64,000 bases of DNA from a virus, in the IMG/VR virus record IMGVR_UViG_2593339207_000001, one strand, 5' to 3'. Below are positions 33,883 through 64,000 of this stretch, piece by piece. Under the pieces are notes generated by a model. The model was not told the origin of the DNA. It saw only the letters and a program-made list of their open reading frames with translations, and made no database searches. Position 1 is the first letter of the stretch, and each line of letters opens with the position of its first letter. Position numbers and translations under genes: made by a program.

Positions 33883-35622
33883 ATGCCGAGCCTGATACAG
33901 CCAACATTATTCGACCTGCTTGATGTTCCGGCTTTTCCGAGACCTGCGGCGGTCACGAACGCGATTGAAACACTGGCTTCAAACAGTGGCATCGAGGCGC
34001 GAGGAGCAGTCTTTACGCGCATCGAGGTCGTTGATTTTATTCTCGATCTGGTTGGCTACGTCGCCAATGAGCCACTGCACCACCGTCGCATTCTGGAGCC
34101 ATCTTTTGGCGAGGGCGATTTCCTTCTTCCGATTGTTGAACGACTCATTTCTGCATGGCGGGAAAATGGCGGGAATGTTTCTTCCGCTGGTGCTGAATTA
34201 GGAGAAGCCATTCGTGGCGTGGAGTTACATAGGGAAACCTTTATCTCAACACGCAAGGCCGTCATTAACCGGCTGAAAGCGGAAGGATTATCGTCATCTG
34301 TGGCCTCAGAGCTCGCCGACCAATGGCTGACTCAGGGGGATTTCCTTCTTGAGCGGCAAAACGCTCGCTTTGACTTTGTTGTCGGCAATCCACCGTATGT
34401 CCGTCAAGAACTGATTCCTGCACCACTGTTGACTGAATACCGCCATCGTTACCAGACGATGTACGACCGCGCCGACCTTTACATTCCTTTCATCGAACGT
34501 TCGCTGTCTCTTCTCGACGAAGGCGGGACTCTGGGTTTTATTTGTGCCGACCGATGGATGAAAAACCGCTACGGCGGCCCATTGCGGGAGTTCATCGCAA
34601 GAAATTTCCATCTCAAAGCCTATGTCGATATGGTGGATACCAACGCTTTTCATTCCGAAGTCAGCGCCTATCCCGCGATCACCGTCATTGAGAAGACGAA
34701 AGCAGGTGCAACCCGGATTGCCCACAGGCCCAAGATTGAAAAGAAGGCGTTATCTGCTGTTGCAGCAGAAATCAGGTCTGAAGCCCTGTCCAAAGACTCA
34801 TCTGTCCGAGAAATGGTTGGAGTGGTAAGCGGTTCAGAGCCTTGGCTTTTGGAATCGTCGGATCAAATGTCGCTGATCCGACGTATCGAAAGCCAATTTC
34901 CCGCGCTGGAACAAGCTGGTTGTAAGATCGGGATTGGTGTGGCCACTGGCGCTGATAAGGCGTTCATCGGGAATTTCGAATCTCTTGACGTCGAGTCCGA
35001 CCGAAAAATTCCACTTGTGGCGACCCGTGACATTCAATCCGGTGAGGTCGTCTGGCAAGGTCAAGGAGTTATCAATCCGTTCGCAGATGACGGTGGCCTT
35101 GTCGATTTGCGGGATTACCCCAAGCTGGCCAGCTACCTTGAAGAACGAAAGTCGGTGATAGCAAAGCGTCATTGTGCACAGAAAGCACCGTCAAATTGGT
35201 ACCGGACGATTGACCGGATATGGCCGGGGCTGACCAGCAAGCCGAAGTTGCTGATACCAGATATCAAGGGCGAGGCTCACATTGTTTTTGAGCCGGGCAA
35301 ACTTTATCCGCACCACAACCTTTACTATGTCGTCTCAGACACTTGGGATTTGCGTGCCTTGCAGGCGGTATTGCTATCCAGCATCGCCAAGCTATTTGTG
35401 GCGACCTATTCAACGAAAATGCGCGGAGGTTACCTGCGTTTTCAGGCGCAGTACCTGCGGCGCATCCGCATTCCCTTCTGGCAGCACGTATCCGAGAATC
35501 TCCGGCGGGAGTTGATCCATGCCGCGACCAACCGCGATCTTGACGCTTGTAACAGAGCGGTTTTCAAACTTTACAAACTGAACCAAGAAGAACGATCCGC
35601 TCTTGGCGGCAATGGAGAATAA
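33883..35622 (+). CDS. Type II N6-adenine DNA methyltransferase (PaeR7I/XhoI-like, Eco57I/TaqI-type domains)
   Basis: [38 protein letters not shown] motifs. Confidence 0.9.
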
Positions 35623-35624
35623 TA

Positions 35625-36365
35625 ATGGCAATTGACCTTGTAGATTATGAGCGGAAGGCTCGTGAAGCTGTGCAGGCGTTTTGGGAAAACCGGGAAGCAG
35701 CCAGGCAGAAGCAAATTGAATCAGGCAAGGCCGACCAGGGGGAGCGTGCTAGTGTGACCTCTGGCAAAAACATGGATGGGTTTATCGCCTTAATACTCGA
35801 CATCATCCATGCCAACGGGCTCACCCATGCCGACATCCACCAGAAACGCGCCGTCCTGACGCTGCCCGGTTTCTTTCGGCCAACCAAGCTCTGGGATCTG
35901 CTAGTCATCCACAAAGGCGAGCTGATTGCGGCCATTGAACTGAAAAGCCAGGTGGGACCTTCGTTCGGCAACAATTTCAACAACCGGACGGAAGAGGCCA
36001 TCGGCACAGCTCATGACTTGTGGACCGCCTATCGCGAAGGGGCGTTCGGCAAACAGCCTCGTCCGTTTGTTGGCTGGCTGATGTTGGTTGAGGATGCGCC
36101 TGAGTCCCGTTCTCCAGTCAAATACAACTCACCTCATTTCCCCGTGTTTAAGGAATTCAAGAGCGTATCTTATCTCCAGCGGTACGATTTGCTTTGCCAG
36201 AAGTTGACACAGGAACAACTCTACACATCCGCTTCGCTTATCGCCTCTCCGAGATCCGCCGCTGCTGGTGGTAATTTTTGCTCGTTGTCATCAATGACCA
36301 GTCTCAAGACCTTCGTCGCCTCTCTTGCCGGACACATCGCAGGCGAGTCGGCAAGACTTGAGTAG
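35625..36365 (+). CDS. Type II restriction endonuclease, PaeR7I/XhoI family
   Basis: [12 protein letters not shown]...[24 protein letters not shown]...RPFVGWL. Confidence 0.88.
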
Positions 36366-39810: not shown

Positions 39811-41121
39811 ATGATTGACATGCTTAAAGAAATAATCCTCGATTTTCAGGAGATTGACCTTCCGACGGGTGTGCCCAGGCGGGTTGCTGTTTCGCCAGTG
39901 CCGGGAAAAGCCACGGTTTGCATCGGTGTGCGCCGCAGCGGTAAATCGACTTTCATGTTCCAGCTTATGAAGAAGCTGCAGGACACTGGCGTTGCCCGTC
40001 AGAACATCCTCTATCTGAACTTTTTCGATGATCGTCTGCATAGTCTGCAACACGACAATCTGGGTGTGATTCTGGAAGCCTACTTTTCGCTCTATCCGGA
40101 AAAAAAGAATGCCGAGAAGGTTTATTGCTTTTTCGATGAGATCCAGGTCGTACCTGGCTGGGAGCCCTTCGTTGACCGCTTGATGCGCATGGAAAAGTGC
40201 GAGGTGTACATTACCGGGTCGTCGGCTCAGATGCTCTCACGAGAGATAGCGACCCAGATGCGCGGCCGGGCACTCTCCTGGGAAATGTTCCCGTTTTCAT
40301 TCCGGGAGTTTCTCGACTACAAGGGGATCGAGAGCGACGGTCCACTCTCGACCAAAAAACGTCTGACTGTCCAGAAGGCATTCGAGGAGTACTGGGAAAC
40401 CGGTGGCTTCCCCGAGGTTGCAGGCCTTAACCGTATGCTGCGAATCAAGACCCACCAAGAGTATTTCAACGCAATGCTGTTCCGGGACCTTGTTGAACGC
40501 CATGATATCTCTCACCCCAAGGCGGTCACGGATCTGGCGCATTGGCTGGTGGACAATACGGGTTCCCTCTATTCCATCAACAACCTGACCGGCTACCTGA
40601 AATCCCTGGGGCACAAAGCGCCGAAACCCGCCGTCTCCGATTATCTCGAATGGTTCGAGGATGCCTACGTTCTGTTCACGGTGCGCATCTTTGACGCCTC
40701 GCTGGCCCGGGCCAACACCAACCCCAAGAAGATTTACTGCGCCGATCACGCGCTGGTGACGTCGATCAGCTCCGGCATTCTGGTCAACTCGGGCCATCTT
40801 CTGGAGAACCTGGTGTTCACCGCGCTGCGTCGGGTCACGCCGGATATCTTTTACTACAAGACCAAGGCGGGCCGGGAGGTTGATTTCATCGCCGGACGAC
40901 AAGGCCCGTCCCGCATGCTTGTTCAGGTTTGTGAATCGATGGCCGACCAGCAAACCCGCAAGCGGGAAACCACCGCGCTTGCCGAAGCCATGACCGAACT
41001 GAAACTGTCGCATGGCATTATCGTGACGCGTAACGAGGAAGAGCAGATACAGGTAGATTCCGGAAAAATTGACGTGGTGCCCGCCTGGCGGTTTCTGCTG
41101 AACATGCCGGAAAGCGCCTGA
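39811..41121 (+). CDS. AAA_14 + DUF4143 ATP-binding protein (moron)
   Basis: GVRRSGKST, FFDEIQ, ITGSS, TGGFPE, NPKKIY...LENLV, EVDF motifs. Confidence 0.92.
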   Translation: MIDMLKEIILDFQEIDLPTGVPRRVAVSPVPGKATVCIGVRRSGKSTFMFQLMKKLQDTGVARQNILYLNFFDDRLHSLQHDNLGVILEAYFSLYPEKKNAEKVYCFFDEIQVVPGWEPFVDRLMRMEKCEVYITGSSAQMLSREIATQMRGRALSWEMFPFSFREFLDYKGIESDGPLSTKKRLTVQKAFEEYWETGGFPEVAGLNRMLRIKTHQEYFNAMLFRDLVERHDISHPKAVTDLAHWLVDNTGSLYSINNLTGYLKSLGHKAPKPAVSDYLEWFEDAYVLFTVRIFDASLARANTNPKKIYCADHALVTSISSGILVNSGHLLENLVFTALRRVTPDIFYYKTKAGREVDFIAGRQGPSRMLVQVCESMADQQTRKRETTALAEAMTELKLSHGIIVTRNEEEQIQVDSGKIDVVPAWRFLLNMPESA

Positions 41122-53675: not shown

Positions 53676-54148
53676 CAGAACGGGATCATGTCGTCCATCG
53701 CCGCGCCGGGAGCCCCGGCATCGTCGGCCATGACAATGCGACGGTTGAAGTAGATGTTCTCGTTTTCACCGCGAGTGCGTTTGGTCACCTCCAGCTTGAT
53801 GTTGAGAAGCTGCTCGAGGTGGCCCGGCAGGTCGGAGAGCTTCTGAAGCTGCAGCCCGCAGGTGTAGAGGTCCTGCTTGAGCCACTTGATGTTCTCGTTG
53901 CTGGCCATGACGTTGTTGCGCCAGAGCAGACGGCCCTTGTGGGTCGGAGCGAGAATGCGCAGGGTCCACTTGAGCATGGGGTTGCCCGAAGTCTGGGCGC
54001 GGGTCAGTTCGACCCGGTCGACGTTGACCTGGTACTTGCCGTCGGGGACGGCCTCGAACTCGCGTTCCTCGACTTCGGCGGTTTCAAAGGCGTCGTCGAA
54101 CTGCGCCAGGTCGAGGTTGCTGCTGGATTGGTTTTCGTAGTGTTCCAT
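53675..54148 (-). CDS. DUF669 single-stranded DNA-binding-like protein
   Basis: VPDGKYQV...TSGNPMLKWTL; acidic DDMIPF tail. Confidence 0.85.
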   Translation of the reverse strand: MEHYENQSSSNLDLAQFDDAFETAEVEEREFEAVPDGKYQVNVDRVELTRAQTSGNPMLKWTLRILAPTHKGRLLWRNNVMASNENIKWLKQDLYTCGLQLQKLSDLPGHLEQLLNIKLEVTKRTRGENENIYFNRRIVMADDAGAPGAAMDDMIPF

Positions 54149-54160
54149 GGTCGGATCTCC

Positions 54161-54931
54161 TTACTGTTGAGGTTTCGCCGCCGCACTCGCGGTCGGCTCC
54201 GGCTTCGGCCGGGCGGCACTCGCCGCAGCTCCGGCTGCCGTGTTGTTGAAGGCTTTAACGAAGCTCGAAAAATCGAGGGGGATGACTTCGGGGAGTCGGC
54301 CGGTGCGGTCACCGGCGTCGTAGTTGGGACTGGGCTTGGTGCGCATCACGCGCTGCCAGACCGGCTTGCCGTCATCGCCGGTTTTCATGTCCAGATCGCA
54401 GAACAGGATCAGATCCACCAGGCCGGTGACCAGCTTCCGCGCCTTTTCCGGCAGCGTCGGCACGATGCGGGTGTGTTTGCCGGTCCGGGTCTCGATGTCC
54501 CGCTCCTGGGAGTGGGAAATCAGGATCAGCCCGTAGGGCAGGAAGGCCAGCTTGTTGATGACGCGCTGGAACTCGTTGTTGATCAGCGCGTAGCCCTTGC
54601 CGTAGCCCAGGTCAGATTCGTGCTCGATCTTGAATTTCTTGCAGACGTAGTCCGAGCACATCTTGTAGGCGTTATCCACCGTATCGACGACGATGGTCTT
54701 GAACTCGTGCTTGCCCTCGGCGATTTCGGCACAGGCCTGCAGAAGGTCGTCCCAGCAGGTGATCGGGGTCTGGAACACCTCCAGGGCATTCAGGCCCGGC
54801 TCGGTCGCCAGGAACAGTGCGTCATCGGCCTTGGAGCACCAGGTGCTCTTGCCGATCTTGCTCGGGCCGTACACCAGGGCGGTGAGATCCGAGAGCGTGT
54901 GTTTGGGTTTGCTTTTGGTCTTGGGAAGCAT
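54161..54931 (-). CDS. AAA_24 (Sak4-like) ATPase
   Basis: YGPSKIGKST, TIVVDTVD, LISHSQ. Confidence 0.9.
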   Translation of the reverse strand: MLPKTKSKPKHTLSDLTALVYGPSKIGKSTWCSKADDALFLATEPGLNALEVFQTPITCWDDLLQACAEIAEGKHEFKTIVVDTVDNAYKMCSDYVCKKFKIEHESDLGYGKGYALINNEFQRVINKLAFLPYGLILISHSQERDIETRTGKHTRIVPTLPEKARKLVTGLVDLILFCDLDMKTGDDGKPVWQRVMRTKPSPNYDAGDRTGRLPEVIPLDFSSFVKAFNNTAAGAAASAARPKPEPTASAAAKPQQ

Positions 54932-54957
54932 GGCTTCGTCTCCTTATGGTTGGGATT

Positions 54958-55974
54958 TCAGAACACCGGAGCGGCGTCTTCACCGGCTCCGTCCCGCAGC
55001 TCTTCGTGCGGGGCGATCCGTTGGAAATGGTTTTCGATGACGTTGGGGTTGCCGCCCGAGCGGCAGAGCTGGAAGTAGGCGCAGGGCCTTCCGTACTGGA
55101 AGCAGTAGCTGGTGTTGCGGTAGAAGATGTTGCGCCGACGGGCGTCGAGCATGGCCTTGGAGAGTTCCCACAGCTCCGCCCGCAGTTCCTCGAACTGGTC
55201 GCGGGAGATGTAGAGCACCTCGCGGTGGAACATGCCCGGCTCGAGGTACTTCTCCTGGAGCCGTTGCTGGAAGGTGTCGTCGTCCTCCGGCAACTTGCGC
55301 TTGGCGCTGCTCTTGCCGGTTTTCGACTTGGCGATCAGCTCCGCCCGGCGGGCCTCGAATTCGGCTTCGGTCTCACCCTTTCCCTGGCGCAACTTGGCCT
55401 TGACCAGGACGTTGTAGATGATGCCGCTGACCGTGATGCCGAGGGTCTGCTCCAGGTACCAGGCGTAGAGGATGATCTGGAAATCGGTCCACAGCCGCTC
55501 CAGGTAGCTGGCGTCGATCTGCGAGGCGGTTTTGTGTTCCAGCAGGAAATACTGGCCATCCTGACGGACGATGCCGTCCACCTTCCCGGCGAGAATAAAA
55601 CTGCGTGAGGTCGCCCCGGTCGCCGGGTTGACGATGGGACCTTCGAAGGTCTTTTCGAGCGCGACGACCTCGAACGCTTCGGCCGGGTAGTGTTCCGCAT
55701 AGGCGCTCATCATGGCCCGGGCGAGATGCCAGTCGGCCTGTTGATGATCGTCCTGCGCCCGGTTTGGATAGGTCCGGTCGATGTGGTCGAGGACCTTGGC
55801 CAGCTCCCGCTCGCTGTGCCAGCACTCCAGGCAGTCGTGGATGACCGAGCCGAAGGCCAGATTGGGGTCGCGCTCGAGCGGCACCAGCTCGTCGATATAG
55901 CGCCACTTGCAGGCCATGCGGCAGTTGCGGAACAGCCGCCACATGGAATAGGTGGTGGTCATCAGCTCGCTCAT
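54958..55974 (-). CDS. PD-(D/E)XK Cas4-like exonuclease
   Basis: CRMACKW, GSVIH, GKVDG, LLEHKT, CFQYGRPCAYFQLC. Confidence 0.9.
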   Translation of the reverse strand: MSELMTTTYSMWRLFRNCRMACKWRYIDELVPLERDPNLAFGSVIHDCLECWHSERELAKVLDHIDRTYPNRAQDDHQQADWHLARAMMSAYAEHYPAEAFEVVALEKTFEGPIVNPATGATSRSFILAGKVDGIVRQDGQYFLLEHKTASQIDASYLERLWTDFQIILYAWYLEQTLGITVSGIIYNVLVKAKLRQGKGETEAEFEARRAELIAKSKTGKSSAKRKLPEDDDTFQQRLQEKYLEPGMFHREVLYISRDQFEELRAELWELSKAMLDARRRNIFYRNTSYCFQYGRPCAYFQLCRSGGNPNVIENHFQRIAPHEELRDGAGEDAAPVF

Positions 55975-56306
55975 ACCGCCACCCCCGCTTCGGCGGCGGG
56001 CGCTACGCGATGCTTGGAGGCACAGGCGCAACCCGACGGTTGGGATCGTTCGATCAGGACCGAGCGTTCACCGTATTCCTTGGTGGCGAAGCCAGTGAAG
56101 ATGCGGGCAAGGTCACTGCCGACATCGGTGGAGGCGTCGATCACGCAGGTACGTCGGGCCTTGTCCAAATTGAACCGGCTCTCCATCCGCACACGGGAAC
56201 GGCCATGCAGGCTTTCGACGGCCAGCATCGCCAGCATGAAAGTGTCTTCCAGTTCCTGGGCCGGGACCGACTCGTCAAAACGGTACTTGTAAGTGTCGTG
56301 AGTCAT
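55971..56306 (-). CDS. Hypothetical protein, first gene of the replication operon
   Basis: MTHDTYKYRF with GAGGAG RBS after a class-1 motif. Confidence 0.75.
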   Translation of the reverse strand: MTHDTYKYRFDESVPAQELEDTFMLAMLAVESLHGRSRVRMESRFNLDKARRTCVIDASTDVGSDLARIFTGFATKEYGERSVLIERSQPSGCACASKHRVAPAAEAGVAV

Positions 56307-56376
56307 GGTTGAACTCCTCTTTTGTTCAGGTTCTGATTTCCGAGGCCCCGGATAGCCGCACCATGCGGCACGGTGC

Positions 56377-56408
56377 TTACTTACCGGAGGCGGAGCCGAT
56401 GCGTCGGA
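56377..56408 (-). promoter_or_regulatory. Class-1 promoter-like motif directly after the sigma gene
   Basis: TCCGACG-N13-TCCGGTAAGTAA. Confidence 0.8.
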
Positions 56409-56410
56409 GA

Positions 56411-56995
56411 TCACAGGTAGTCCTCGAGCCCGGCCTCGCGGAATGCGTCCCTCAGCTTGCTCAGCCGGTCGTAGAGGGTGGTTCTGGGAATGCCCATCTC
56501 CCGGGCGACTTCGGCCATGGTGCTGTCGTGCAGACGCAAGCACAGATCCCGGAGCTCTTCCGGCAGCGAGGCGATGGCCTGGCCGAGATCCATGCGGATC
56601 TCATGGGCGAGACGCTCTCTTGTTTCGCGGGTGCCGCTTCCCAGAGAGCCTTCGCTATCCAGGAAGTCGATCCGCTCGGCGGTGTCGCCTTCGCCGTTGT
56701 CGAGGGGTTCGTTGAGTGAGGTTTGGCAGAGCCGCCAGTCCCGGCATTGGGCGAACCGTGCCTCCAGGATGGTGGAGATGTGACGTTCGACGATCCGGGC
56801 CATGAAGGTGGTCTTCTTGGCCTTGGCGGGATTGAAATGCCGCATCCGCTGCAGCAGATCGATCATCAGTTCCTGTTCGAGGTCGGGTCTGTCGTCCTCG
56901 GTGAATCCGGCCTTGCCTACGAGTTGACGTGCTTTGTGCCGAATGAGGTCGGCGGCATACTTGTCGATGCCGTCGTAAGAATTCTGTGAAACCAT
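56411..56995 (-). CDS. Phage sigma-70 family (ECF-like) sigma factor
   Basis: DLEQEL...FNPAKAKKTTF region 2; region 4 HTH STMAEVAREMGIPRTTLY. Confidence 0.88.
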   Translation of the reverse strand: MVSQNSYDGIDKYAADLIRHKARQLVGKAGFTEDDRPDLEQELMIDLLQRMRHFNPAKAKKTTFMARIVERHISTILEARFAQCRDWRLCQTSLNEPLDNGEGDTAERIDFLDSEGSLGSGTRETRERLAHEIRMDLGQAIASLPEELRDLCLRLHDSTMAEVAREMGIPRTTLYDRLSKLRDAFREAGLEDYL

Positions 56996-57000
56996 CGGGG

Positions 57001-57128
57001 CCTCCTCGGAGCGAGGAGGAGGTCCGCGTGGGTGTCGGCACGGGCCAGATCACAGGACAAAGCTGTCGCGTGGGCGAAGGGGTCGCAGGTACGCCGCCAA
57101 TTGCCGTATTCGGCTCGGCGACACCCAC
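57001..57128 (-). promoter_or_regulatory. Structured 5' leader of the sigma gene with SD-sequestering hairpin
   Basis: CCTCCTCG-CTC-CGAGGAGG covers the SD; 10-bp long-range stem GTGGGTGTCG/CGACACCCAC. Confidence 0.6.
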
Positions 57129-57190
57129 AACAGCCTCCGCCATGCGTCCAGCTTGTTGTCCAGTGTCTAAGGGTTCAGGTCGTTACGTGT

Positions 57191-57517
57191 TCAGGCTGCC
57201 CGTTCCTCGATGCGCATCAGGAACGGGAGACCGTGCTTGATCTCGAGCAGGCAGACTTTTCCGCTGCCCATCTGCGCGAGGTGCTCCAGCAGCGCCACGA
57301 CCTCTTGCTTGAGAATGAAGTCATCCTGGTCGCGCTCGGGCCGGGGACCGCTTTGTCCGCCCAGCTTGATCTCGCGCTCGATGACCGTGTCAGGGGTGAG
57401 TTCCGGCTCGCCTTCGCGGACCGGAATGTTGGTGATGCGGCCGAAGTTGATGTCCTGCATCAACTCGATGAGTCGCCGCTTCGGTGGGGTGAGGTGTGCT
57501 TTGTTGACTTGTGCCAC
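57191..57517 (-). CDS. Hypothetical protein upstream of sigma
   Basis: 108 aa, GGAG RBS, GTG start. Confidence 0.7.
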   Translation of the reverse strand: MAQVNKAHLTPPKRRLIELMQDINFGRITNIPVREGEPELTPDTVIEREIKLGGQSGPRPERDQDDFILKQEVVALLEHLAQMGSGKVCLLEIKHGLPFLMRIEERAA

Positions 57518-57574
57518 TGCCAGTCTCCTTGTTCGGAAGTTCTGGCACGCCCGGTGGCCAACCCTGTGCTGACC

Positions 57575-57626
57575 AATAAAAAACGCCGGATCGCGCCTTC
57601 ATTGGGGAAGGCGCTACATCCGGCGT
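57575..57626 (-). terminator. Terminator-like hairpin after the QueC-like gene
   Basis: ACGCCGGAT/ATCCGGCGT outer stem, GCGCCTTC/GAAGGCGC inner stem, then TTTTTTATT on the minus strand. Confidence 0.7.
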
Positions 57627-57690
57627 CGCAATGGCTACATTTGGCGTAGCGGAAATTTTTTTTAGTTTTTTCTTCCTGGGTGGTCCCGGG

Positions 57691-59793
57691 TCACTCGTTG
57701 ACTATCGGGCGGACCTCCCAAACGATCTCCTCTTCGGTCCGGTAGACCGGTTCGTTGCCGCACTTGATGGACTCCTTCAGGTGGGCGGCCAGCGGCTTGT
57801 CATACTTCTCCAGATACGTGATGGCCCGGTTCACGGCGTTCCGGAAGGCGTCGCGGATGTTCTTCCGCTTGTCGTTGGATTTCCGGAGTTTGCCACCCAG
57901 ACCAACCGCCTCGTTGATTGCTGTGGTCACCTTTGCCATTTCTTCTTCAAGCCGCTGAATCTCGGCAGCGTTGTTTTCTGCTCGTGCGTCTTCAATTTCT
58001 CGAAGAAGATCGTGAGCCGCCTCCCGGTACTGCTCGATAGCCTTGCGGTCGGCGACGAAGCCGGTATCGCCCAACGGAACCCCCTGGGTGACCTGAAAAC
58101 CGTCTTCGGTTTCATCAGAGTTCAGAAACGTGTTGCAGGTATTGATGGCCAACCCGCAGACGATCTCGTAGACCGAGGTTTCCTTGTTGGGCCTCGCCAG
58201 AAGGAAGTTGATGTACTCGGCTCCTTTGTCGACACCCGTCACGAGCACCTCGGCATTGCCGTTAAAGCGTGCGGCCCAGACACCCCCGCGCTTCCTGAAG
58301 TAGTTGTCCGGCTGCTTCTGCTCGACCGGAATAGCTGGGACAGAGATCACCGATCCCGATTCATAGACCGTCCGAAGCAAACAGTCTCCCGGCAAGGTGC
58401 GCTGACGGATGGCCGTGATGTTGCGGGCGACCATGGTGTCCATCGCTTCGCAGACCTCCTTGGCGTGGCGTTTGTAAAGGTCATAGACCTTCTGGGCCAC
58501 GCTTCCGGGGTTCCCATTCAAGTAGCGGAAGACCCGACTTACCTCGCTGAATCGAGCGATAAACTGGGTGATGTCATCCTGATCACGGACCTGGTTGGCT
58601 CGCTCCAGGTACGCGGCAGCCATGATCTTGTCCTCGTCCTTGCTTCGACTTTGGGTGAAGATATCGGCCTTATAGTCTTCCACGGGGTCATGCTGATCCG
58701 CTTTTGCCGCAATCATGGCAAAACGCCTGTCGATGCACTGCGAACACGTTCCGCAATGCGTATGGTGATTGGTCATCTCCCAGGTATGGGTGCAGGTGGT
58801 CGATGCCGCGATCATGTCCTGGCATCCGGCCTTGGTGATCACCTCGATAACACCGGCCTTGGTTTTCCAGATGTAGGGATTCTCAATCGTGAACGGTTCG
58901 CCAGCCACCAGGCTGATGATTTCCTGAAAGCCTCGGATCACCCTGGGGTGGGTGGTGCGTGTTGCCCGGCCGCCGACTACCTGAGCGCAGACCGGCAGAT
59001 TCAAACTGATGACCCCGTTTTCGTAAAAACGGACGCTTTTCAGATTGAGCATTTTTGCGATGGTCGCCCCGATAGACACATAAAGGAAGGATCGGCTGCG
59101 CTGGGTGTACTCGTAGTTCAGGCCCTTGTTCTTGTTGACCCGGACGCCGATGTGTAGCGGGGCGTTTTCCCCAGCCTTGTCGGCAATCATCTTTTCCAGG
59201 CGGCGGTGGCGCTTGTTGAGTTTCGGGGTTGACTTGTGGGTCACCAGGACGACCCGGTGCTTTTCGTTCAACACCTCGTCGATAGCTCCGGCCAGCGAAT
59301 CCAGGCCGCCTGAAAACATCACCACCTGTTCCGGATAACCGAGAAGACGCCCGTCATCGTTGAAGTCCAGATAGCCCTGGAATGCCTGAGCCTCTTTCAG
59401 TTTGACGAACTCGAAGTGATAGTTGTCGTCAGACAAGAAACCAAGCGTGGAGCGCAGCGCCTGGTGGATATCGTCTCCGTTCCAAAAATCTGGCTTCCGC
59501 ACCGGGATGATGAAGTGCAGATCCCTGCGCCAGCCATGGCCAAAAGAATCGACGTCGTCGGCCCCTCGTGGGATGGCCTGATCGGCACTGTAAACGTAGG
59601 TGGCGATTTCGAGCAGGTCCTGGAAAGAATCAGGCACGTCCTTGCTCATCTTTTTGTGGATGTCTTCAATGCGTAGGGTGATCTTGTCCGGCCCATCCTT
59701 ACCCCAAAGGCGCAGGCGCAGATCACGGTCAGGATTTTCTTCAATCCCATCGGTCGGTGCGTTCCCACAGATGATATATCGTTTATCTTGCAT
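57691..59793 (-). CDS. QueC/QatC-like PP-loop enzyme with C-terminal predicted DNA-binding domain
   Basis: DLLEIATYVYSAD...WRRDL N-domain, SGGLDS, TQRSRSF, CTH...HCGTCSQC; about 190-aa extension. Confidence 0.85.
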   Translation of the reverse strand: MQDKRYIICGNAPTDGIEENPDRDLRLRLWGKDGPDKITLRIEDIHKKMSKDVPDSFQDLLEIATYVYSADQAIPRGADDVDSFGHGWRRDLHFIIPVRKPDFWNGDDIHQALRSTLGFLSDDNYHFEFVKLKEAQAFQGYLDFNDDGRLLGYPEQVVMFSGGLDSLAGAIDEVLNEKHRVVLVTHKSTPKLNKRHRRLEKMIADKAGENAPLHIGVRVNKNKGLNYEYTQRSRSFLYVSIGATIAKMLNLKSVRFYENGVISLNLPVCAQVVGGRATRTTHPRVIRGFQEIISLVAGEPFTIENPYIWKTKAGVIEVITKAGCQDMIAASTTCTHTWEMTNHHTHCGTCSQCIDRRFAMIAAKADQHDPVEDYKADIFTQSRSKDEDKIMAAAYLERANQVRDQDDITQFIARFSEVSRVFRYLNGNPGSVAQKVYDLYKRHAKEVCEAMDTMVARNITAIRQRTLPGDCLLRTVYESGSVISVPAIPVEQKQPDNYFRKRGGVWAARFNGNAEVLVTGVDKGAEYINFLLARPNKETSVYEIVCGLAINTCNTFLNSDETEDGFQVTQGVPLGDTGFVADRKAIEQYREAAHDLLREIEDARAENNAAEIQRLEEEMAKVTTAINEAVGLGGKLRKSNDKRKNIRDAFRNAVNRAITYLEKYDKPLAAHLKESIKCGNEPVYRTEEEIVWEVRPIVNE

Positions 59794-60571
59794 CGGCTCG
59801 CGCTCCTTCTTTTAGCTCGTCCTTCATCTTTTTCAGCGCGTAAGAGGCGAAGCCATTGGAAGACTCCCTGGAGATGTCACCACCTTCTTCGTACCTGTGC
59901 TTCGAAAACCAATCTGCTGAAAACTGCTCGACGATCAGGGACGCCTCTTTACAGTGCGTGTTCAGAGCCTTCTCGAATTGTTCCATTTCATTCATGGTGG
60001 CAAAGCGCTGGCCCTCGCCAAGATGGGTAGCCAGCGTTTTTGAAAGGAAGTAGTTCATGCTCTCGTTGGTCAGCTTGGCGAAGAAAGTCCGCGACAGCTC
60101 TCCGAACTCTCGCTTTTTACCGAGCGCCGCCAGTGCGGCCCGAACATCATCTGGCCCGGGGGCGAAGAGAGACGGCAGTTTTGGTGAGATGTGCTCTACC
60201 AGGGCTCCGACCAATGCACGCTGAGACATTTCACCGAGGTCGGATCGGCCACCGTTGGACTCCAATTTGTTATCCAGGGCCTCGGAGACTGCGGCGGCAA
60301 GATCGGGAAGGGATGTATCCTGCGGCAGGTTGACGCCGAGGGATTGGAGATGCTCGCCGAGGTTCTCCTTTTTTGCGGCAATGGCGAGCTGCGTCATCAA
60401 CCAGACCGCCTCGGTGAACCCCTCATCGTTGAGCACGAAGGTGAATGCTTTATCGGCTGCCCGGATTGTTGCGTTTGCGATTTGGGACACGTCGGCACCG
60501 GCCGTGATCAGGCCGACCACCTCTTTCCATGCCCTCGACCTCGGAAGGCTTCCAAGTCTGACGTGCCCCAT
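59783..60571 (-). CDS. QatB-like helical protein with N-terminal Gly
   Basis: 262 aa, all-helical composition, starts MG, overlaps the QueC-like start. Confidence 0.55.
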   Translation of the reverse strand: MGHVRLGSLPRSRAWKEVVGLITAGADVSQIANATIRAADKAFTFVLNDEGFTEAVWLMTQLAIAAKKENLGEHLQSLGVNLPQDTSLPDLAAAVSEALDNKLESNGGRSDLGEMSQRALVGALVEHISPKLPSLFAPGPDDVRAALAALGKKREFGELSRTFFAKLTNESMNYFLSKTLATHLGEGQRFATMNEMEQFEKALNTHCKEASLIVEQFSADWFSKHRYEEGGDISRESSNGFASYALKKMKDELKEGARADAR

Positions 60572-60604
60572 GTCGATCTCCTTATTTTTCGCGACCCAGC
60601 ATCG

Positions 60605-60838
60605 TTACTCGGGCCTCCTGATGACGACGATGCTTCGGGCCTTACGAGCTTCTTTCTTCAGATAGCCTTTCCGTACCAGTTGAGCGATCTGCTCGTGGGC
60701 GCTCGCGTGGCTGATACCAAGGACTTCCGACAATTCTTTCACCGTTGGCGGCAACCCCTTTTCATCGATGATTTGGCAAATGACCCTCAGCGTGTTTGCT
60801 TGTGGGTCGGTTATTTCCGATACCTTTCCCTTTCCCAA
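60605..60838 (-). CDS. LexA DNA-binding-domain-only repressor candidate
   Basis: GLPPTVKELSEVLGIS...LVRKGYL..EARKARSI; no peptidase domain. Confidence 0.85.
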   Translation of the reverse strand: MGKGKVSEITDPQANTLRVICQIIDEKGLPPTVKELSEVLGISHASAHEQIAQLVRKGYLKKEARKARSIVVIRRPE

Positions 60839-60903
60839 GGCGATTGCTCCGTGTCGTAGCCACTGAGCGGATTAAGCCCAATTTATGACCACAAAATATA
60901 CGA

Positions 60904-60919
60904 CCTGATGAACATCAGG
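60904..60919. promoter_or_regulatory. Palindromic operator candidate in the divergent control region
   Basis: CCTGATG-AA-CATCAGG. Confidence 0.5.
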
Positions 60920-60949
60920 CCAATAAAAAAACAGGACTTCTCGTCTGAT

Positions 60950-60981
60950 TCCGTCATCTTGCACGTCCCTCCGGTAGGTAA
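60950..60981 (+). promoter_or_regulatory. Class-1 motif on the plus strand facing the recombinase module
   Basis: TCCGTCA-N13-TCCGGTAGGTAA. Confidence 0.65.
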
Positions 60982-61045
60982 CGAACGCAAGTCCGGTTCA
61001 AGCCGGATGTAACCAGATAACCGACCAGAGGCGGAGCTGAGGCGG

Positions 61046-61375
61046 TTGTGGGTGCCATCGAACGCGCATCCCGACCGCCGCCGTTTTCTGGCATCCACGC
61101 CATCCAGCCCCCGGTCCAACCGGAGGTGTTCGATGTTGGATGTACAGGAAATGAATGATGGGCCAGGGACGGATGACCTTGGCAAAAACGGCAAACCCGG
61201 CCGCCTGTCGGGTGAGGCGAGGCTCCAGTCAGCCGCCTCCATTCTGGCCACGGCGATCCTGCGCCGAAAGGCAAAAAACGCATGTGTGGGCAATGAGTTA
61301 GATGCTTTCGAAGATTCTTCCCCTGTGCTCGGAGAAGGACTTGATTCATTGCCGGAACAGAGCATTCATTCATGA
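61046..61375 (+). CDS. Possible small hypothetical protein (start uncertain)
   Basis: C-terminal helical RLQSAASILATAILRRK; lies between the class-1 motif and DUF2924. Confidence 0.4.
   Translation: MWVPSNAHPDRRRFLASTPSSPRSNRRCSMLDVQEMNDGPGTDDLGKNGKPGRLSGEARLQSAASILATAILRRKAKNACVGNELDAFEDSSPVLGEGLDSLPEQSIHS
61339..61374 (+). promoter_or_regulatory. Class-2 promoter-like motif upstream of DUF2924
   Basis: ACTTGATT-N5-CCGGAA-N3-AGCATTCATTCATG. Confidence 0.6.
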
Positions 61376-61409
61376 CAACTCGTCCGGAAACCAAAATAAG
61401 GAGTTGAAA

Positions 61410-61934
61410 ATGAATGAGTTACACAACGCCGCCACCGGCGGCAAGAATCAGGACCGAACCCGAAACTCGGTCCTTCGGCAGATGGCCCTGCTGCAATCCA
61501 TGTCCCTGGAGCAGCTCCGGGAAAAATGGCTCGACCTCTACGGCGAAGAGCCGCCCCAGTACAAAAAGCAATTCCTCATCAAGCGGCTGGCCTATCGCAT
61601 CCAGGAGCTTTTCTACGGCGGGCTGTCCGAGCAGGCCAAGGTCCATCTCCAGCAGGCCGCCAAGGAGGACCCGGTAGCCACTGTCAATCGACGCATCCCA
61701 GAAGAGCGGAAATCGAACGAGGCGCTCCTGCCCGGGACCAGACTGGTGCGGGTCTGGAACGACCGGCGCTATGAGGTGATCGTCCTTGCCGATGGCTATG
61801 AGTTCGAAGGCCGCACCTTCCGGTCGCTCAGCGCGGTGGCCAGGGAGATCACCGGGACGCGCTGGAACGGCAAGGTCTTTTTCGGGCTGAAGAAGGTTTA
61901 CGGCAGAAAAGCCGAAGGAGGTTCGGATGCTTGA
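61410..61934 (+). CDS. DUF2924 family protein
   Basis: LREKWLDLYG...LAYRIQELFYGGL...PGTRLVRVW...SLSAVAREITGTRWNG. Confidence 0.92.
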   Translation: MNELHNAATGGKNQDRTRNSVLRQMALLQSMSLEQLREKWLDLYGEEPPQYKKQFLIKRLAYRIQELFYGGLSEQAKVHLQQAAKEDPVATVNRRIPEERKSNEALLPGTRLVRVWNDRRYEVIVLADGYEFEGRTFRSLSAVAREITGTRWNGKVFFGLKKVYGRKAEGGSDA

Positions 61935-63513
61935 TAACAGCAATGTAGCGCCGGGCAAAAACAAGACCCTGCGCTGCGCCATCTACACCCGCAAGAGTCA
62001 TGAGGAAGGGCTCGAACAGGAGTTCAACTCGTTGGATGCGCAACGGGAGTCGGCGGAACACTATATCGAATCCCAGAGGATGCGGGGCTGGACGGCTCTG
62101 CCGGATCGCTACGACGATGGTGGTTTCTCGGGTGGGAACATGGAGCGCCCGGGGCTGCGCCGCCTGCTGGAGGACATCGATGCCGGGAAGATTGACGTGA
62201 TCGTGGTCTACAAGGTCGACCGGCTGTCCCGCTCGCTGCTGGACTTCATGAAGATGATCGACCTCTTCAACGAGAAGGGTGTCAGCTTCGTCTCGGTCAC
62301 CCAGCACTTCAGCACCACCGACCCCACCGGCCGGATGTTTCTCGGCATCCTGATTACCTTCGCCCAGTACGAGCGGGAGGTCATCGCTGAACGTATCCGG
62401 GACAAGGTGGCGGCCGCCAAGCGCCGGGGGAAATACTGCGGCGGCGTGCCCATCATCGGATATGACGTCGACCGGGAGAACAAGAAGCTGCTGGTCAACC
62501 CCGATGAGGCCAGGACGGTGCAGTACATCTTCCGCCGCTTCATCCAGATCGGCTCGGCCAAGAAGCTGGGCCAGGAATTGAACGAACAGGGATACCGGAC
62601 CAAGGCCTGGACCACCAAGAAAGGCAAGGTGCGCGAGGGCTCCGAATGGAACACCGCCCACATCTACCGGCTGCTCAACAACCGGATCTATATCGGCGAG
62701 ATCGCCCACAAGGATCGCAGCTACCCCGGGGAGCACGATGGGATCATTGACCGGGCGACCTGGGACAAGGTGCAGGTCATCCTGGAGGACAACAAACCGG
62801 TCAAGATTTCCATGGCCAGAACCAAAATGGTCGCCCCGCTGAAGGGCGTCATCCGCTGCGGCCACTGCGGATGCTCGATGGGACCGACCTACGCCCGCAA
62901 GAACGGCCGCCACTACACCTATTACATCTGCCAGAAGGACAGCAAGCGGACCGTGAGCCGGTGTCCGCTCAAACGGATTCCCGCCGGGGACATCGAGCAG
63001 GCCGTGGTCGAGCAGTTGAGCGCGGTGTTCCGCACACCGACGCTGGTGGCCAAAACCTTCTTTGCGGCCCGGGACATCGAGCAGGTGGAGCGGGAGCGGC
63101 TGTTCAAGCAGAAAGCCCAACTCGAGATGGAGCTGTCGCAGGCGCGGGAGCAAGCCCTCGAACTGATGAGGCCCGGCAACGATCAGCCGGGCAAGGCCGA
63201 GATGCTGACAACCGTCAACCGCCAGGCGGTCGAGCTCTCGAAACAACTGACGCACGTGAACGAGCGATGCAGAGCCTACCAGGGGAACAGCATCACGGAA
63301 CAGGATGTTTCGGAGGCCTTCCAGAATGTCGAAGGCTTCTGGGAAGACCTTTTCCCGGTGGAGCGAAACCGGCTCATCCGCCTCCTGGTGGATAAGGTCG
63401 AGATCCGCGAGACCGGAATCGACATGGAGTTGCGCACCAACGGGCTGACAACGCTCATCGCCGAACTGGCTGGGCTGGCATGCGAAGTCACCGAACGGAG
63501 GGCAATTCGATGA
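61927..63513 (+). CDS. Large serine recombinase (resolvase + recombinase + zinc ribbon)
   Basis: CAIYTRKS, DGGFSGG...RPGL, VDRLSRS, CGHCG...YYIC...C. Confidence 0.96.
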   Translation: MLDNSNVAPGKNKTLRCAIYTRKSHEEGLEQEFNSLDAQRESAEHYIESQRMRGWTALPDRYDDGGFSGGNMERPGLRRLLEDIDAGKIDVIVVYKVDRLSRSLLDFMKMIDLFNEKGVSFVSVTQHFSTTDPTGRMFLGILITFAQYEREVIAERIRDKVAAAKRRGKYCGGVPIIGYDVDRENKKLLVNPDEARTVQYIFRRFIQIGSAKKLGQELNEQGYRTKAWTTKKGKVREGSEWNTAHIYRLLNNRIYIGEIAHKDRSYPGEHDGIIDRATWDKVQVILEDNKPVKISMARTKMVAPLKGVIRCGHCGCSMGPTYARKNGRHYTYYICQKDSKRTVSRCPLKRIPAGDIEQAVVEQLSAVFRTPTLVAKTFFAARDIEQVERERLFKQKAQLEMELSQAREQALELMRPGNDQPGKAEMLTTVNRQAVELSKQLTHVNERCRAYQGNSITEQDVSEAFQNVEGFWEDLFPVERNRLIRLLVDKVEIRETGIDMELRTNGLTTLIAELAGLACEVTERRAIR

Positions 63514-64000
63514 AAAAATCGTCTGGAACTATTTTTGACGCCCGACAGGGCGGCCCCGAAGGGGTTAGCCTCAGGGATGGGGCGAACAAAATGAAGCCGA
63601 CCATTACCGTAGCCGACAACGGCAACCTGCAGATCCACATCCCGATGCTGATCCGGCGCATGCGCGGCCGCAAGACGGTCATCGCTCCCCAGACCCTGGA
63701 TGGAGAAATCACCGGAGCGCAGGAACCGGTGCAGTCCGCCGTCCTCCAGGCGCTGGGCAGGGCCTTTTCCTGGGCCGACATCCTCGAATCCGGCCAGATC
63801 AAGTCCATCAGCGAGCTTGCCCGTACCCTCGACGTCGATGGCTCGTATGTGGCCCGCATTCTCAAGCTGACGACCCTGGCCCCCGACATCGTCGAAGCCC
63901 TGATCAACGGTGAGGAACCCAACGGGCTCTCGCTGGCCAAACTGACCCAGACCTTCCCGGAGGACTGGGCCGAGCAGCGCCGCCAGTTCGGCTTTGCCAC
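63510..64000 (+). CDS. Recombinase-associated HTH-like protein (3' end cut by the window edge)
   Basis: Open frame from ATG 63510 (or 63591): RAFSWADILESG...SISELARTLDVDGSYVARILKLTTLAPDIVEA. Confidence 0.85.
   Translation, partial: MKKSSGTIFDARQGGPEGVSLRDGANKMKPTITVADNGNLQIHIPMLIRRMRGRKTVIAPQTLDGEITGAQEPVQSAVLQALGRAFSWADILESGQIKSISELARTLDVDGSYVARILKLTTLAPDIVEALINGEEPNGLSLAKLTQTFPEDWAEQRRQFGFA
63512..63587 (+). repeat. Multi-hairpin palindromic element copy D (in frame)
   Basis: GAAAAAATCGTCTGGAACTATTTTTGACGCCCGACAGGGCGGCCCCGAAGGGGTTAGCCTCAGGGATGGGGCGAAC. Confidence 0.75.

What the first reader, a model, noticed from the sequence alone, without database searches (positions are those of the whole stretch)
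57691..60838. QatB/QatC-like pair without QatA/QatD, fused to a DNA-binding-type domain, in the prophage control region
Seen: the operon LexA-HTH -> 262-aa helical protein starting Met-Gly -> 700-aa QueC-like enzyme lies exactly where a repressor locus is expected, between the recombinase module and the sigma gene. The enzyme has the QatC-type N-domain, PP-loop and Zn-Cys motifs. Its ~190-aa C-terminal extension (FRKRGGVWAARF...GLGGKLRKSND...NAVNRAI...LAAHL) resembles the C-terminus of large ATPase transcriptional regulators. No QatA ATPase, TatD, TGT or QueDE gene is visible. Known: QueC-family defence enzymes (Qat, type IV CBASS) attach a deazaguanine to a partner's N-terminal Gly. Inference: protein deazaguanylation repurposed as a lysis-lysogeny or infection-sensing regulator, or a minimal two-gene defence. 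The MGHVRLG N-terminus differs from the typical QatB start, so the QatB call is tentative.
Basis: partly seen in the sequence, partly recalled or inferred. Interest (0 to 1): 0.85.

Follow-up and report, generated by a model that had tools for sequence, protein, structure and literature searches.

The report
Prophage QatB/QatC pair wired to early-operon control
A prophage carries a three-gene operon (small repressor, QatB-like protein, QatC-like enzyme); the enzyme is fused to a widespread, undescribed output domain that always travels with a pair of 17-bp palindromes at the head of the phage's early lytic genes, so a protein-tagging enzyme known from anti-phage defence may here feed into phage gene control.

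Summary
Three minus-strand genes lie between the serine-integrase module and the phage early operon: a 77-aa LexA-type wHTH, a 262-aa protein and a 700-aa QatC-like enzyme.

- **Partner protein:** it has the QatB fold (Z 14.7 to 9y01_A, next hit 6.2) and an invariant Met-Gly-His start. It shows no sequence similarity to QatB, and its N-terminal tail is about 10 aa instead of about 63.
- **Missing parts:** there is no QatA or QatD in or near the window.
- **Module X:** the enzyme's last ~200 aa ("X") are a C-terminal domain with no Pfam or PDB match. It occurs in over 11,000 protein clusters, behind REC, cNMP, CBS and STAND domains.
- **Cis element:** X-bearing genes in several phyla co-occur with tandem GCTAC-N7-GTAGC palindromes, mostly just after their stop codon. 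In the window these sit 41 nt after the stop, overlap a terminator and precede the first early gene (p108) and the sigma gene.
- **Sister phages:** near-identical phages swap this cassette for another. The early-operon palindrome changes with the second protein's C-terminal domain.

Best reading (0.45): QatB/QatC is the input of an X-type regulator of the early operon. Main rival (0.30): plain rexAB-like defence cargo. Modification and nucleic-acid binding are untested. The scan met this family before on other DNA (e1-1396650, e1-4201013, e1-5350521).

The parts
60895..60923 (-). Promoter-like site of the operon (TTGGCC-17-TATATT; TTGACC in relatives)
   Evidence: Consensus scan. Homologous promoters are seen in L096 and L097.
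60903..60920 (.). Operator palindrome ACCTGAT-N4-ATCAGG(T/C) lying between the -35 and -10 hexamers
   Evidence: It is the only close copy in the 64-kb window. It is conserved upstream of the HTH gene in nearly all cassettes, including those with a full-length LexA-like regulator.
60605..60838 (-). 77-aa LexA-N-type winged-helix regulator (no S24 peptidase domain)
   Evidence: Pfam LexA_DNA_bind E 5e-13; PHROG transcriptional repressor family E 1e-8. Sister phages carry a 223-aa HTH+Peptidase_S24 version, 62% identical in the HTH part.
59783..60571 (-). 262-aa QatB-like partner with invariant Met-Gly-His N-terminus and a short tail
   Evidence: AF2 model pLDDT 80.7. VIA Z 14.7, rmsd 3.6 A, 209 of 215 residues aligned to QatB 9y01_A; next hit Z 6.2. 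Foldseek TM 0.55/0.64. N-terminal conservation. No HMM or hhalign signal.
58600..59646 (-). QatC-homologous PP-loop domain of the 700-aa protein (aa ~50-398; PP-loop at 59296-59313, Zn-Cys cluster at 58723-58794)
   Evidence: NCBIfam QatC E 2.9e-61, 207.6 bits against a cut-off of 280; PADLOC QatC; PDB QatC 9vlk and 9zee; family invariants.
57694..58311 (-). C-terminal module X (aa 495-700): three short strands plus helices, a coiled hairpin, a basic GGK/R-rich motif and a terminal hairpin
   Evidence: The model is moderately confident in its folded parts. No Pfam, PHROG or PDB match. HMM search: 11,072 representative proteins at E<=1e-3, always at the C-terminus. N-terminal partners include REC, AAA_16+TPR, cyclase, cNMP and CBS.
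57613..57650 (.). Tandem 17-bp palindromes GCTAC-N7-GTAGC (site 1 perfect, site 2 with one mismatch), in 21-nt register, starting 41 nt after the stop codon
   Evidence: These are the only two copies in the window. They are conserved with X-bearing genes across phyla and absent from phages without X.
57575..57627 (-). Intrinsic terminator whose 5' arm is formed by site 2 of the palindrome pair
   Evidence: RNA fold -54.6 kcal/mol, z -4.1; T-run visible in the sequence.
57191..57517 (-). p108, first gene of the early operon (unknown function)
   Evidence: ORF with a GGAG site. It is conserved in sister phages. A 40%-identical homologue (E 2e-25) follows a REC-X gene and the same palindromes in L139.
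56411..56995 (-). Phage sigma factor, second early gene
   Evidence: Sigma70_r2/r4 (weak Pfam matches, just below the curated cut-offs) and PHROG sigma factor E 3.5e-25.
61302..63513 (+). DUF2924 protein and large serine recombinase, transcribed divergently from the operon
   Evidence: Pfam and PHROG. The divergent pairing with the HTH gene is kept in nearly all related elements.

Best explanation
The three genes are the immunity-type operon of a temperate phage.

1. The small wHTH represses its own promoter at the palindrome inside it.
2. The QatC-like PP-loop enzyme binds the QatB-like partner. By analogy with Qat and type IV CBASS, it uses ATP to attach a 7-deazaguanine carboxylate, supplied by the host queuosine pathway, to the partner's N-terminal glycine.
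3. The enzyme's C-terminal module X is a nucleic-acid-binding output domain. It recognises the tandem GCTAC-N7-GTAGC element just after its own gene. That element overlaps a terminator at the head of the early operon (p108, sigma factor, recombination and replication genes).
4. The QatB/QatC state would thus decide whether transcription enters the lytic genes. The enzyme pair plays the part that a REC domain or other sensor plays in sister X proteins.

Shown: the homologies, the fold match, the anatomy of the operon and its leader, and the co-occurrence and co-variation of X with the element. Inferred: the modification, the binding (DNA or nascent RNA), and the direction of control.
For: **QatC and QatB homology**
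- QatC homology with an intact catalytic and zinc motif set.
- QatB fold at Z 14.7, far above all other hits. Gly2 is invariant. The two genes overlap by 11 nt.

**Module X as an output domain**
- X is the C-terminal domain of more than 11,000 protein clusters. Recognisable N-terminal partners are signal-input domains: REC with a histidine kinase next door, cNMP-binding, CBS, and STAND AAA_16-TPR.

**Link between X and the palindromes**
- Tandem GCTAC-N7-GTAGC pairs follow QatC-X genes in Verrucomicrobiota (L060), a low-GC bacterium (L074) and Myxococcales (L077). A single perfect site lies upstream of the p108 homologue in the Planctomycetota locus L055. In the Burkholderiales-type phages the pair lies 3 kb from the cassette, in front of the first early gene (a 103-108-aa product too diverged for tblastn).
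- The same or symmetrically altered pairs follow 5 of 7 unrelated X genes tested. L139 and L143 have GCTAC/GTAGC, each followed by a p108-sized gene (the L139 one a confirmed homologue), and by a sigma gene in L143. L137 has GCTAG/CTAGC, L140 TGGAC/GTCCA, L141 CATAC/GTATG.

**Comparison with sister phages**
- Their backbones are near-identical to the window's, and their p108 is 96-99% identical. The palindrome type follows the C-terminal domain of the second cargo protein.
- X goes with GCTAC sites: 13 type A loci and 2 type B' loci (L133 and L105, whose site 1 has the symmetric variant arms ACGAC/GTCGT). The non-X domain goes with TGAAC-N7/8-GTTCA: 12 loci on this backbone and 12 on a 70% backbone.
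- The HTH operator is the same in both types. Type C (L111) has a MarR regulator and a different promoter instead.

**Leader structure**
- Site 2 forms the 5' arm of the terminator.
Against: - No DNA- or RNA-binding family or fold was recognised in X. There were only weak OmpR-type rows (probability at most 0.2) and a generic helical match.
- In the window-type phages, X and the element are adjacent, so part of the co-occurrence could be linkage.
- L025 has a 49%-identical X beside an unchanged element.
- The two STAND-X genes tested lack the element.
- Canonical QatBC alone gives phage defence (PMC13279940), so defence needs no regulatory role.
- The partner's tail is far shorter than in QatB, and whether Gly2 reaches the active site could not be modelled.
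- In vitro chemistry is unresolved even for canonical QatC (PMC13279940, PMC13639016).
Confidence: 0.45

Rival explanations
1. Plain defence cargo. This would be a minimal, self-regulated QatBC-type anti-phage system carried in the prophage's lysogeny module, like rexAB behind cI in lambda. X would be an effector or sensing domain. The palindromes and terminator would merely insulate the lytic operon or belong to the phage backbone.
For: - QatB+QatC alone protect against lambda-vir in two systems (PMC13279940).
- Only about a third of QatC-cluster genes sit beside qatA or qatD (PMC13329287).
- The cassette is exchangeable between near-identical phages.
- Its GC3 is lower than that of the flanking phage genes: 0.63-0.72 against 0.77-0.86.
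- Distant members sit next to AbiEii (L077) or on a Leptospira plasmid beside an IS element.
- A remnant keeping only the cassette survives at a tRNA gene in Burkholderia multivorans.
- The prophage carries other defence cargo: an XhoI-type R-M pair and a PDC-S01 candidate.
Against: - It does not explain why the cis element at the early operon changes with the cargo's C-terminal domain while p108 and sigma stay the same.
- It does not explain why REC-X and other X proteins sit in the same place before the same element and a p108 homologue.
- The Burkholderia remnant is 99.8% identical to the prophage copy, so it is too recent to show selection.
Confidence: 0.3
2. The tandem palindromes are not bound by X. 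They would be RNA hairpins or sites for another factor (host or phage), or a boundary used in cassette exchange. X would have an unrelated role such as oligomerisation or partner binding.
For: - Five-base arms with compensatory changes fit hairpins as well as operators.
- The leader folds strongly.
- No binding fold was found in X.
Against: - Among near-identical phages, the slot is the only stretch found to differ (checked over about 16 kb in the one type A/type B pair aligned). A factor that tells the two element types apart therefore has to be encoded there.
- The arm sequence is invariant across phyla while the spacer varies.
- The 20-22-nt register matches two helical turns.
- In L002-type phages the element is 3 kb from the cassette, so it is not a cassette scar.
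- No second copy lies at the other end of the block.
Confidence: 0.12
3. The small wHTH is the prophage's master repressor, and the QatB/QatC-X genes are passengers with no role in either defence or control.
For: - Sister phages have a full LexA/CI-like HTH+S24 protein at this position.
- No other HTH_3 or S24 gene lies in the prophage.
Against: - There is only one operator per locus, at the regulator's own promoter and none at the early operon.
- Both passenger proteins are strongly conserved, with catalytic motifs intact, across phyla.
Confidence: 0.08

Closest known systems
QatB-QatC core of the qatABCD anti-phage system (Gao et al. 2020; structures 9y01, 9vlk, 9zee; PMC13279940, PMC13376578, PMC13639016)
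   Same: - A PP-loop QueC-family enzyme with the QatC-specific motif set.
- A helical partner of about 260-290 aa with the QatB fold, encoded immediately upstream with overlapping genes.
- Partner Gly2 conserved behind the initiator Met.
- The pair can stand without QatA and QatD.
   Different: - No qatA or qatD.
- The enzyme scores below the NCBIfam QatC cut-off and carries about 300 extra residues, including module X.
- The partner has no sequence similarity to QatB, starts MGH instead of MGTS, and has a tail of about 10 aa instead of 30-90 aa. That long tail is the part reported to hold QatD.
- The operon has its own wHTH and operator.
- It is fixed beside the early operon of a phage family.
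Cap9-CD-NTase of type IV CBASS (Wassarman et al. 2025, as cited in PMC13279940)
   Same: A QueC-family enzyme is proposed to conjugate a 7-deazaguanine to a partner's N-terminal glycine, as a switch that activates the partner.
   Different: Cap9 is a minimal ~185-aa QueC core with canonical QueC motifs. Its partner is a nucleotidyltransferase. No nucleotidyltransferase (CD-NTase), TGT or other CBASS gene was seen among the flanking genes annotated (46-64 kb of the window).
Lambda immunity region (cI-rexA-rexB with OR/OL operators; textbook knowledge)
   Same: - A repressor-type gene is followed by two co-transcribed genes in the lysogeny module.
- 17-bp palindromic sites lie in tandem at the early operon.
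- The region is swapped as a block between otherwise near-identical phages.
   Different: - The first gene's operator is only at its own promoter.
- The tandem sites appear to belong to the third protein's C-terminal domain.
- The sites lie downstream of that gene and overlap a terminator.
One-component and response-regulator transcription factors with OmpR/PhoB-type or LuxR-type output domains (MalT-like STAND regulators)
   Same: Module X occupies the output position behind REC, cNMP, CBS and AAA_16-TPR input domains. Its first half has a strand-strand-strand-helix pattern reminiscent of trans_reg_C.
   Different: There is no Pfam or fold match to any known output domain. The second half, with its basic motif, has no counterpart.

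Membership tests
QatC (NCBIfam NF041925 / PADLOC QatC) | PP-loop SGGxDS and the zinc motif C...CGxCxxRR | tested here: met
   SGGLDS at 161-166 and C334/C347/C350/C353 followed by RR at 356-357. All are invariant in 20 homologues. Motif list taken from PMC13329287.
QatC (NCBIfam NF041925 / PADLOC QatC) | QatC-specific motifs: D(x)4R...WxR, RxRxxxF/Y, ExG, HP, P(x)4TK | tested here: met
   DQAIPR...WRR (with a 4-residue insertion), RSRSFLY, ENG, HP and PYIWKTK are seen in the alignment to 9vlk and are conserved in the family.
QatC (NCBIfam NF041925 / PADLOC QatC) | Score above the curated equivalog cut-off | tested here: not met
   207.6 bits against a cut-off of 280. It is a distinct long subfamily of about 570-710 aa.
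QatB | QatB helical fold | tested here: met
   Z 14.7, rmsd 3.6 A, 209 of 215 residues aligned to 9y01_A; next hit Z 6.2. This rests on a predicted model, not a solved structure.
QatB | Sequence similarity to QatB | tested here: not met
   No NCBIfam, PADLOC, Pfam or PDB sequence hit. hhalign against two annotated QatB sequences gave probability 0.65%.
QatB | N-terminal MGTS motif on a 30-90-aa disordered tail | tested here: not met
   Gly2 is kept, but the motif is MGH. The helical core starts at about residue 8-13 and aligns with QatB residue 64. QatB features taken from PMC13279940.
QatB | Complex with QatC and N-terminal modification | not testable with these tools
No biochemical data are available.
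qatABCD system | KAP NTPase QatA and TatD nuclease QatD in the operon | tested here: not met
   The neighbours are phage genes. The genome has no real KAP NTPase hit, and its TatD genes are about 0.5 and 1.1 Mb away.
LexA/CI-type cleavable repressor | DNA-binding domain plus S24 autopeptidase domain | tested here: not met
   The window's protein has only the 77-aa DNA-binding domain. Sister phages and an acidobacterial-type relative have both domains.
OmpR/PhoB-type winged helix (trans_reg_C), considered for module X | Pfam match or fold match to the effector domain | tested here: inconclusive
   No Pfam hit. Foldseek gave rows to CosR, KdpE, NsrR and PhoB at probability 0.1-0.2 over 58-88 columns only. 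A distant homologue has a sub-threshold HTH_17/MerR hit at the same place.

The most novel reading that the evidence does not exclude
Qat-type N-terminal nucleobase conjugation serves here as the signal-input of a new and widespread class of phage early-operon regulators. The class is defined by module X and its tandem 17-bp palindromes. Its input domains are interchangeable: the QatC enzyme with its QatB partner, a REC domain with a histidine kinase, a Cys-rich domain with a 388-aa partner, and others. This prophage would then decide between lysogeny and lytic growth through a protein-nucleobase tag, perhaps on sensing another phage.
Probability: 0.35. Interest if true: 0.9.

Novelty: new variant of a known kind. 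Interest (0 to 1): 0.78.

Why it matters
**For Qat research.** What QatBC does after the partner is tagged is an open question, even for the canonical system. This natural variant offers a direct handle. It has no ATPase and no nuclease. It has an output domain and a defined 38-bp candidate target next to a terminator and a sigma-factor gene. Binding, termination and reporter assays could therefore read out the effect of the modification.

**For phage biology.** The work exposes an unnamed domain found in over 11,000 protein clusters. It also exposes a modular switch architecture in phages found in genomes and MAGs of Desulfobacterota and Burkholderiales and in MAGs assigned to several other phyla. 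In this architecture, different sensor domains sit in front of the same output domain and cis element.

**For annotation.** Genome pipelines call the enzyme a queuosine-pathway synthase. Given the remodelled QatC-type active site (canonical QatC cannot replace QueC, PMC13329287), that name is probably misleading.

Tried and rejected
- **Sequence-level QatB homology** failed at every level.
- **Fold searches with the C-terminal model** gave only generic helical hits. AlphaFold DB returned only uncharacterised relatives. The protein-atlas search returned unnamed clusters. PHROGs has no family for X, the partner, p108 or the alternative cargo.
- **The HTH operator at the early promoter.** I looked for further copies there and found none. 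There is only a 2-mismatch site at 57206-57221, within chance expectation.
- **The palindromes as inversion sites** for the serine recombinase. I rejected this because no second copy lies at the other end of the block.
- **The solitary Burkholderia cassette** first looked like proof of autonomous function. It is a very recent prophage remnant at a tRNA gene, so it proves little.
- **Metatranscriptome contigs** cover the whole prophage evenly and cannot show lysogen-specific expression. They show only that cassette depth is about half that of the flanks and that a type B junction coexists in the sample.
- **Phage and plasmid collections** hold no long-form member at full length. A two-gene relative on a Leptospira plasmid is annotated as hypothetical.
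- **The supplementary file held as text of PMC13329287** does not mention LexA, DUF2924 or resolvase neighbours.
Full report
**1. The observation**

Three minus-strand ORFs lie at the stated coordinates: 60605-60838 (77 aa), 59783-60571 (262 aa) and 57691-59793 (700 aa).

- *The 77-aa protein* is a LexA-type winged helix without a peptidase domain. Its TTG start is an ATG in close relatives.
- *The 262-aa gene* has a GGAG site and starts Met-Gly-His. The 700-aa gene overlaps its end by 11 nt.
- *The 700-aa protein* matches QatC: NCBIfam E 2.9e-61, PADLOC E 6e-54, and solved QatC 9vlk E 2e-30 over residues 57-384.
- *Motifs.* The published QatC motif set (PMC13329287) is present and invariant across 20 homologues. 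It comprises the PP-loop, D(x)4R...WxR, RxRxxxF/Y, ExG, HP, P(x)4TK and the zinc cluster.
- *Cut-off.* The score of 207.6 bits is below the curated equivalog cut-off of 280, so this is a separate subfamily.

The flanks are phage genes. On one side are a sigma factor, an exonuclease, a Sak4-like protein, an SSB-like protein, a RecD-like helicase and a primase. On the other are DUF2924 and a large serine recombinase. By the drop in third-position GC, the prophage ends about 0-1 kb past the window's end.

The genome has no real KAP NTPase. Its two TatD genes are about 0.5 and 1.1 Mb from the window. A canonical QueC and a QueD exist, so the host can plausibly supply the deazaguanine precursor.

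**2. The partner is QatB-like by fold**

The 262-aa family has 329 detected members of nearly constant length, all unnamed. M1, G2, H3, L6 and W15 are invariant; G7 is in at least 90%.

- An AlphaFold2 model (pLDDT 80.7) aligns to QatB of the solved QatBC complex with Z 14.7 and rmsd 3.6 A over 209 of 215 residues. The next hit has Z 6.2. Foldseek gives TM 0.55/0.64, against 0.12-0.27 for the other rows.
- Sequence methods find nothing.
- The model's residue 8 aligns with QatB residue 64. The long disordered tail of canonical QatB (30-90 aa, PMC13279940) is therefore reduced to about ten residues.
- That tail is reported to hold QatD (PMC13639016). Its loss fits the absence of QatD here; this link is my inference.

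**3. Module X**

The last ~200 residues are strongly conserved in the family. They have no Pfam, PHROG or PDB counterpart.

- A profile search of 1.84 billion representatives found 11,072 proteins at E<=1e-3. The module sits at the C-terminus of proteins of about 90-1400 aa.
- Most of the 85 scanned have no recognised N-terminal domain. Those that do carry REC, AAA_16+TPR, cyclase, cNMP-binding or CBS domains. One REC-X gene follows a histidine-kinase gene.
- X therefore behaves as an output domain of signalling proteins.

**4. A cis element that travels with X**

Forty-one nucleotides after the stop codon lie two 17-bp palindromes, GCTAC-N7-GTAGC, 21 nt apart. They are the only copies in the window. 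Site 2 forms the 5' arm of a strong intrinsic terminator. The first early gene, p108, follows, and then the sigma factor gene.

The same tandem pair is found in these places:
- Right after QatC-X genes in a verrucomicrobial, a low-GC and a myxobacterial genome. There X is only 23-35% identical, and the arms are invariant while the spacers vary.
- As a single perfect site upstream of the p108 homologue in a planctomycete locus.
- In the Burkholderiales-type phages, 3 kb from the cassette, on the far side of the recombinase genes and in front of the first early gene.
- After a REC-X gene, followed by a 40%-identical p108 homologue (E 2e-25).
- After a 494-aa X protein, followed by a p108-sized gene (117 aa), a sigma gene and a DUF669 gene.

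Three further unrelated X genes have tandem pairs of the same geometry with symmetrically changed arms: GCTAG/CTAGC, TGGAC/GTCCA and CATAC/GTATG. Two STAND-X genes have none, although one contig ends 190 nt after the stop.

**5. The slot is polymorphic, and the element follows the C-terminal domain**

IMG/VR holds many phages whose sigma, p108, recombinase and Sak4 genes are 94-100% identical to the window's.

| Type | Loci | Content of the slot | Element before p108 |
|---|---|---|---|
| A | 13 | 77-aa HTH, QatB-like, QatC-X | GCTAC-N7-GTAGC pair |
| B | 10 | full LexA-like protein (HTH+S24, 223 aa), then 388-aa and 378-aa unknowns | TGAAC-N7/8-GTTCA |
| B' | 2 | as B, but the second protein ends in X | same conserved leader as type A; site 1 has the symmetric variant arms ACGAC/GTCGT |
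| C | 1 | MarR regulator, permease, then the 389-aa and 378-aa pair | TGAAC-N7/8-GTTCA |

One further locus on this backbone (L115) lacks the slot in the stretch held but has the TGAAC site.

- The B' element is 86-91% identical in nucleotides to the window's, although X itself is only 29% identical in protein.
- The TGAAC-type single palindrome lies about 90 nt before p108. It also occurs in twelve phages of a 70%-identical backbone. Five of those twelve, checked directly, carry a ~207-226-aa LexA-like gene followed by two cargo genes on the other side of the recombinase; four of these have the 388/~376-aa pair.
- The HTH operator (ACCTGAT-N4-ATCAGGT, inside a TTGACC-17-TATATT promoter) is the same in types A, B and B' and occurs once per locus.
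- In the type A/type B pair aligned, the slot was the only stretch that differed, so whatever tells the two element types apart is encoded there. The comparison of B with B' points to the C-terminal domain of the second protein.

**6. Reading**

I take the QatC-X protein to be a regulator acting on the element at the head of the early operon, with the QatB/QatC pair as its input.

- I cannot tell whether X binds DNA or the nascent hairpins. For DNA speak the 17-bp sites two helical turns apart, as in lambda operators. For RNA speaks the fact that site 2 competes with the terminator.
- I also cannot tell whether the outcome is repression or read-through.
- The wHTH is best read as the operon's autoregulator. 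In sister phages it carries an S24 domain and could add an SOS input.
- The defence reading remains serious, because QatBC alone defends (PMC13279940) and the cassette looks like foreign cargo by GC3. The two readings can be combined: an infection sensor that triggers the prophage's own early genes.

**7. Limits**

- No biochemistry is available.
- X has no recognised nucleic-acid-binding fold.
- Part of the co-occurrence is between adjacent sequences.
- One relative (L025) has a much-diverged X beside an unchanged element.
- Complex modelling was unavailable.
- The RNA data were uninformative.

**8. Earlier scan notes**

After my own analysis I found that the scan had met this family on other DNA.
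- e1-1396650 describes a near-identical operon and read it as a minimal Qat-like defence.
- e1-4201013 describes a distant two-gene relative as swappable cargo.
- e1-5350521 noted a conserved repeat after the stop codon, in front of a sigma gene.

My results agree with these notes. They add the QatB fold match with its short tail, the size and architectures of the X family, the generality of the palindrome pair beyond Qat, and the co-variation in sister phages.

Noticed in passing
window 54000-64000 and loci L004, L006, L007, L009, L010, L011, L016, L019, L057: At least this 10-kb end of the prophage is 92-97% identical in nucleotides across isolates and MAGs assigned to very different groups. 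These include Desulfosarcina, Desulfobulbus, Oleidesulfovibrio, a Hydrogenedentales 1.16-Mb contig, a Verrucomicrobiota 253-kb contig and a Gammaproteobacteria MAG. That is an unusually wide apparent host range for one temperate phage, unless some MAG labels are wrong.
   Followed up: partly
window 33883-36365 (+): A low-GC insert (GC 0.53) within the prophage (between the methyltransferase-protease fusion gene at 31015-33426 and minus-strand genes I did not annotate) encodes a type II methyltransferase (Eco57I/TaqI_C type) and an XhoI-family restriction enzyme. This is a complete R-M pair carried as phage cargo.
   Followed up: partly
window 39811-41121 (+): An AAA_14/DUF4143 ATPase matches the PADLOC candidate defence family PDC-S01 (E 9e-112). 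This is another likely defence gene on the opposite strand to most of the prophage's genes.
   Followed up: no
L096:3055-5996, L133:3055-6196, L123:575-3510: The alternative cargo of sister phages is a full LexA-like (HTH+S24) repressor followed by a 388-aa and a ~378-421-aa protein, with no known family in Pfam, PADLOC or PHROGs. It is conserved across two phage backbones, and its own palindrome, TGAAC-N7/8-GTTCA, lies before p108.
   Followed up: partly
L139:1-1990: A histidine kinase and a REC-X response regulator sit directly before the same GCTAC-N7-GTAGC pair and a p108 homologue. This suggests a two-component system wired to the same kind of operon.
   Followed up: partly
window 57191-57517 (-): p108 is a conserved 108-aa protein of unknown function with an INFGRI motif. 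It is always the first gene after the element, and it has no Pfam or PHROG family.
   Followed up: partly
L001:6757-10414: In a Burkholderia multivorans chromosome, only the 3.66-kb cassette plus a fragment of an SNase gene remains next to a complete tRNA gene. It is 99.8% identical to the copy at the end of a prophage in another strain, so it is a recent prophage remnant.
   Followed up: yes
window 60836-60830 and L096 about 3100: The small wHTH and its full-length LexA-like counterparts also begin Met-Gly-Lys. This is probably coincidence, since the type B phages have no QatC.
   Followed up: no
L025:11477-12115, L020: The core of module X is replaced by a 42-49% identical version in otherwise 90-98% identical phages. 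This points to recombination or diversification within X.
   Followed up: partly
window 57206-57221: A 2-mismatch copy of the HTH operator lies at the end of p108, about 210 nt before the sigma gene. Its count is within chance expectation.
   Followed up: partly
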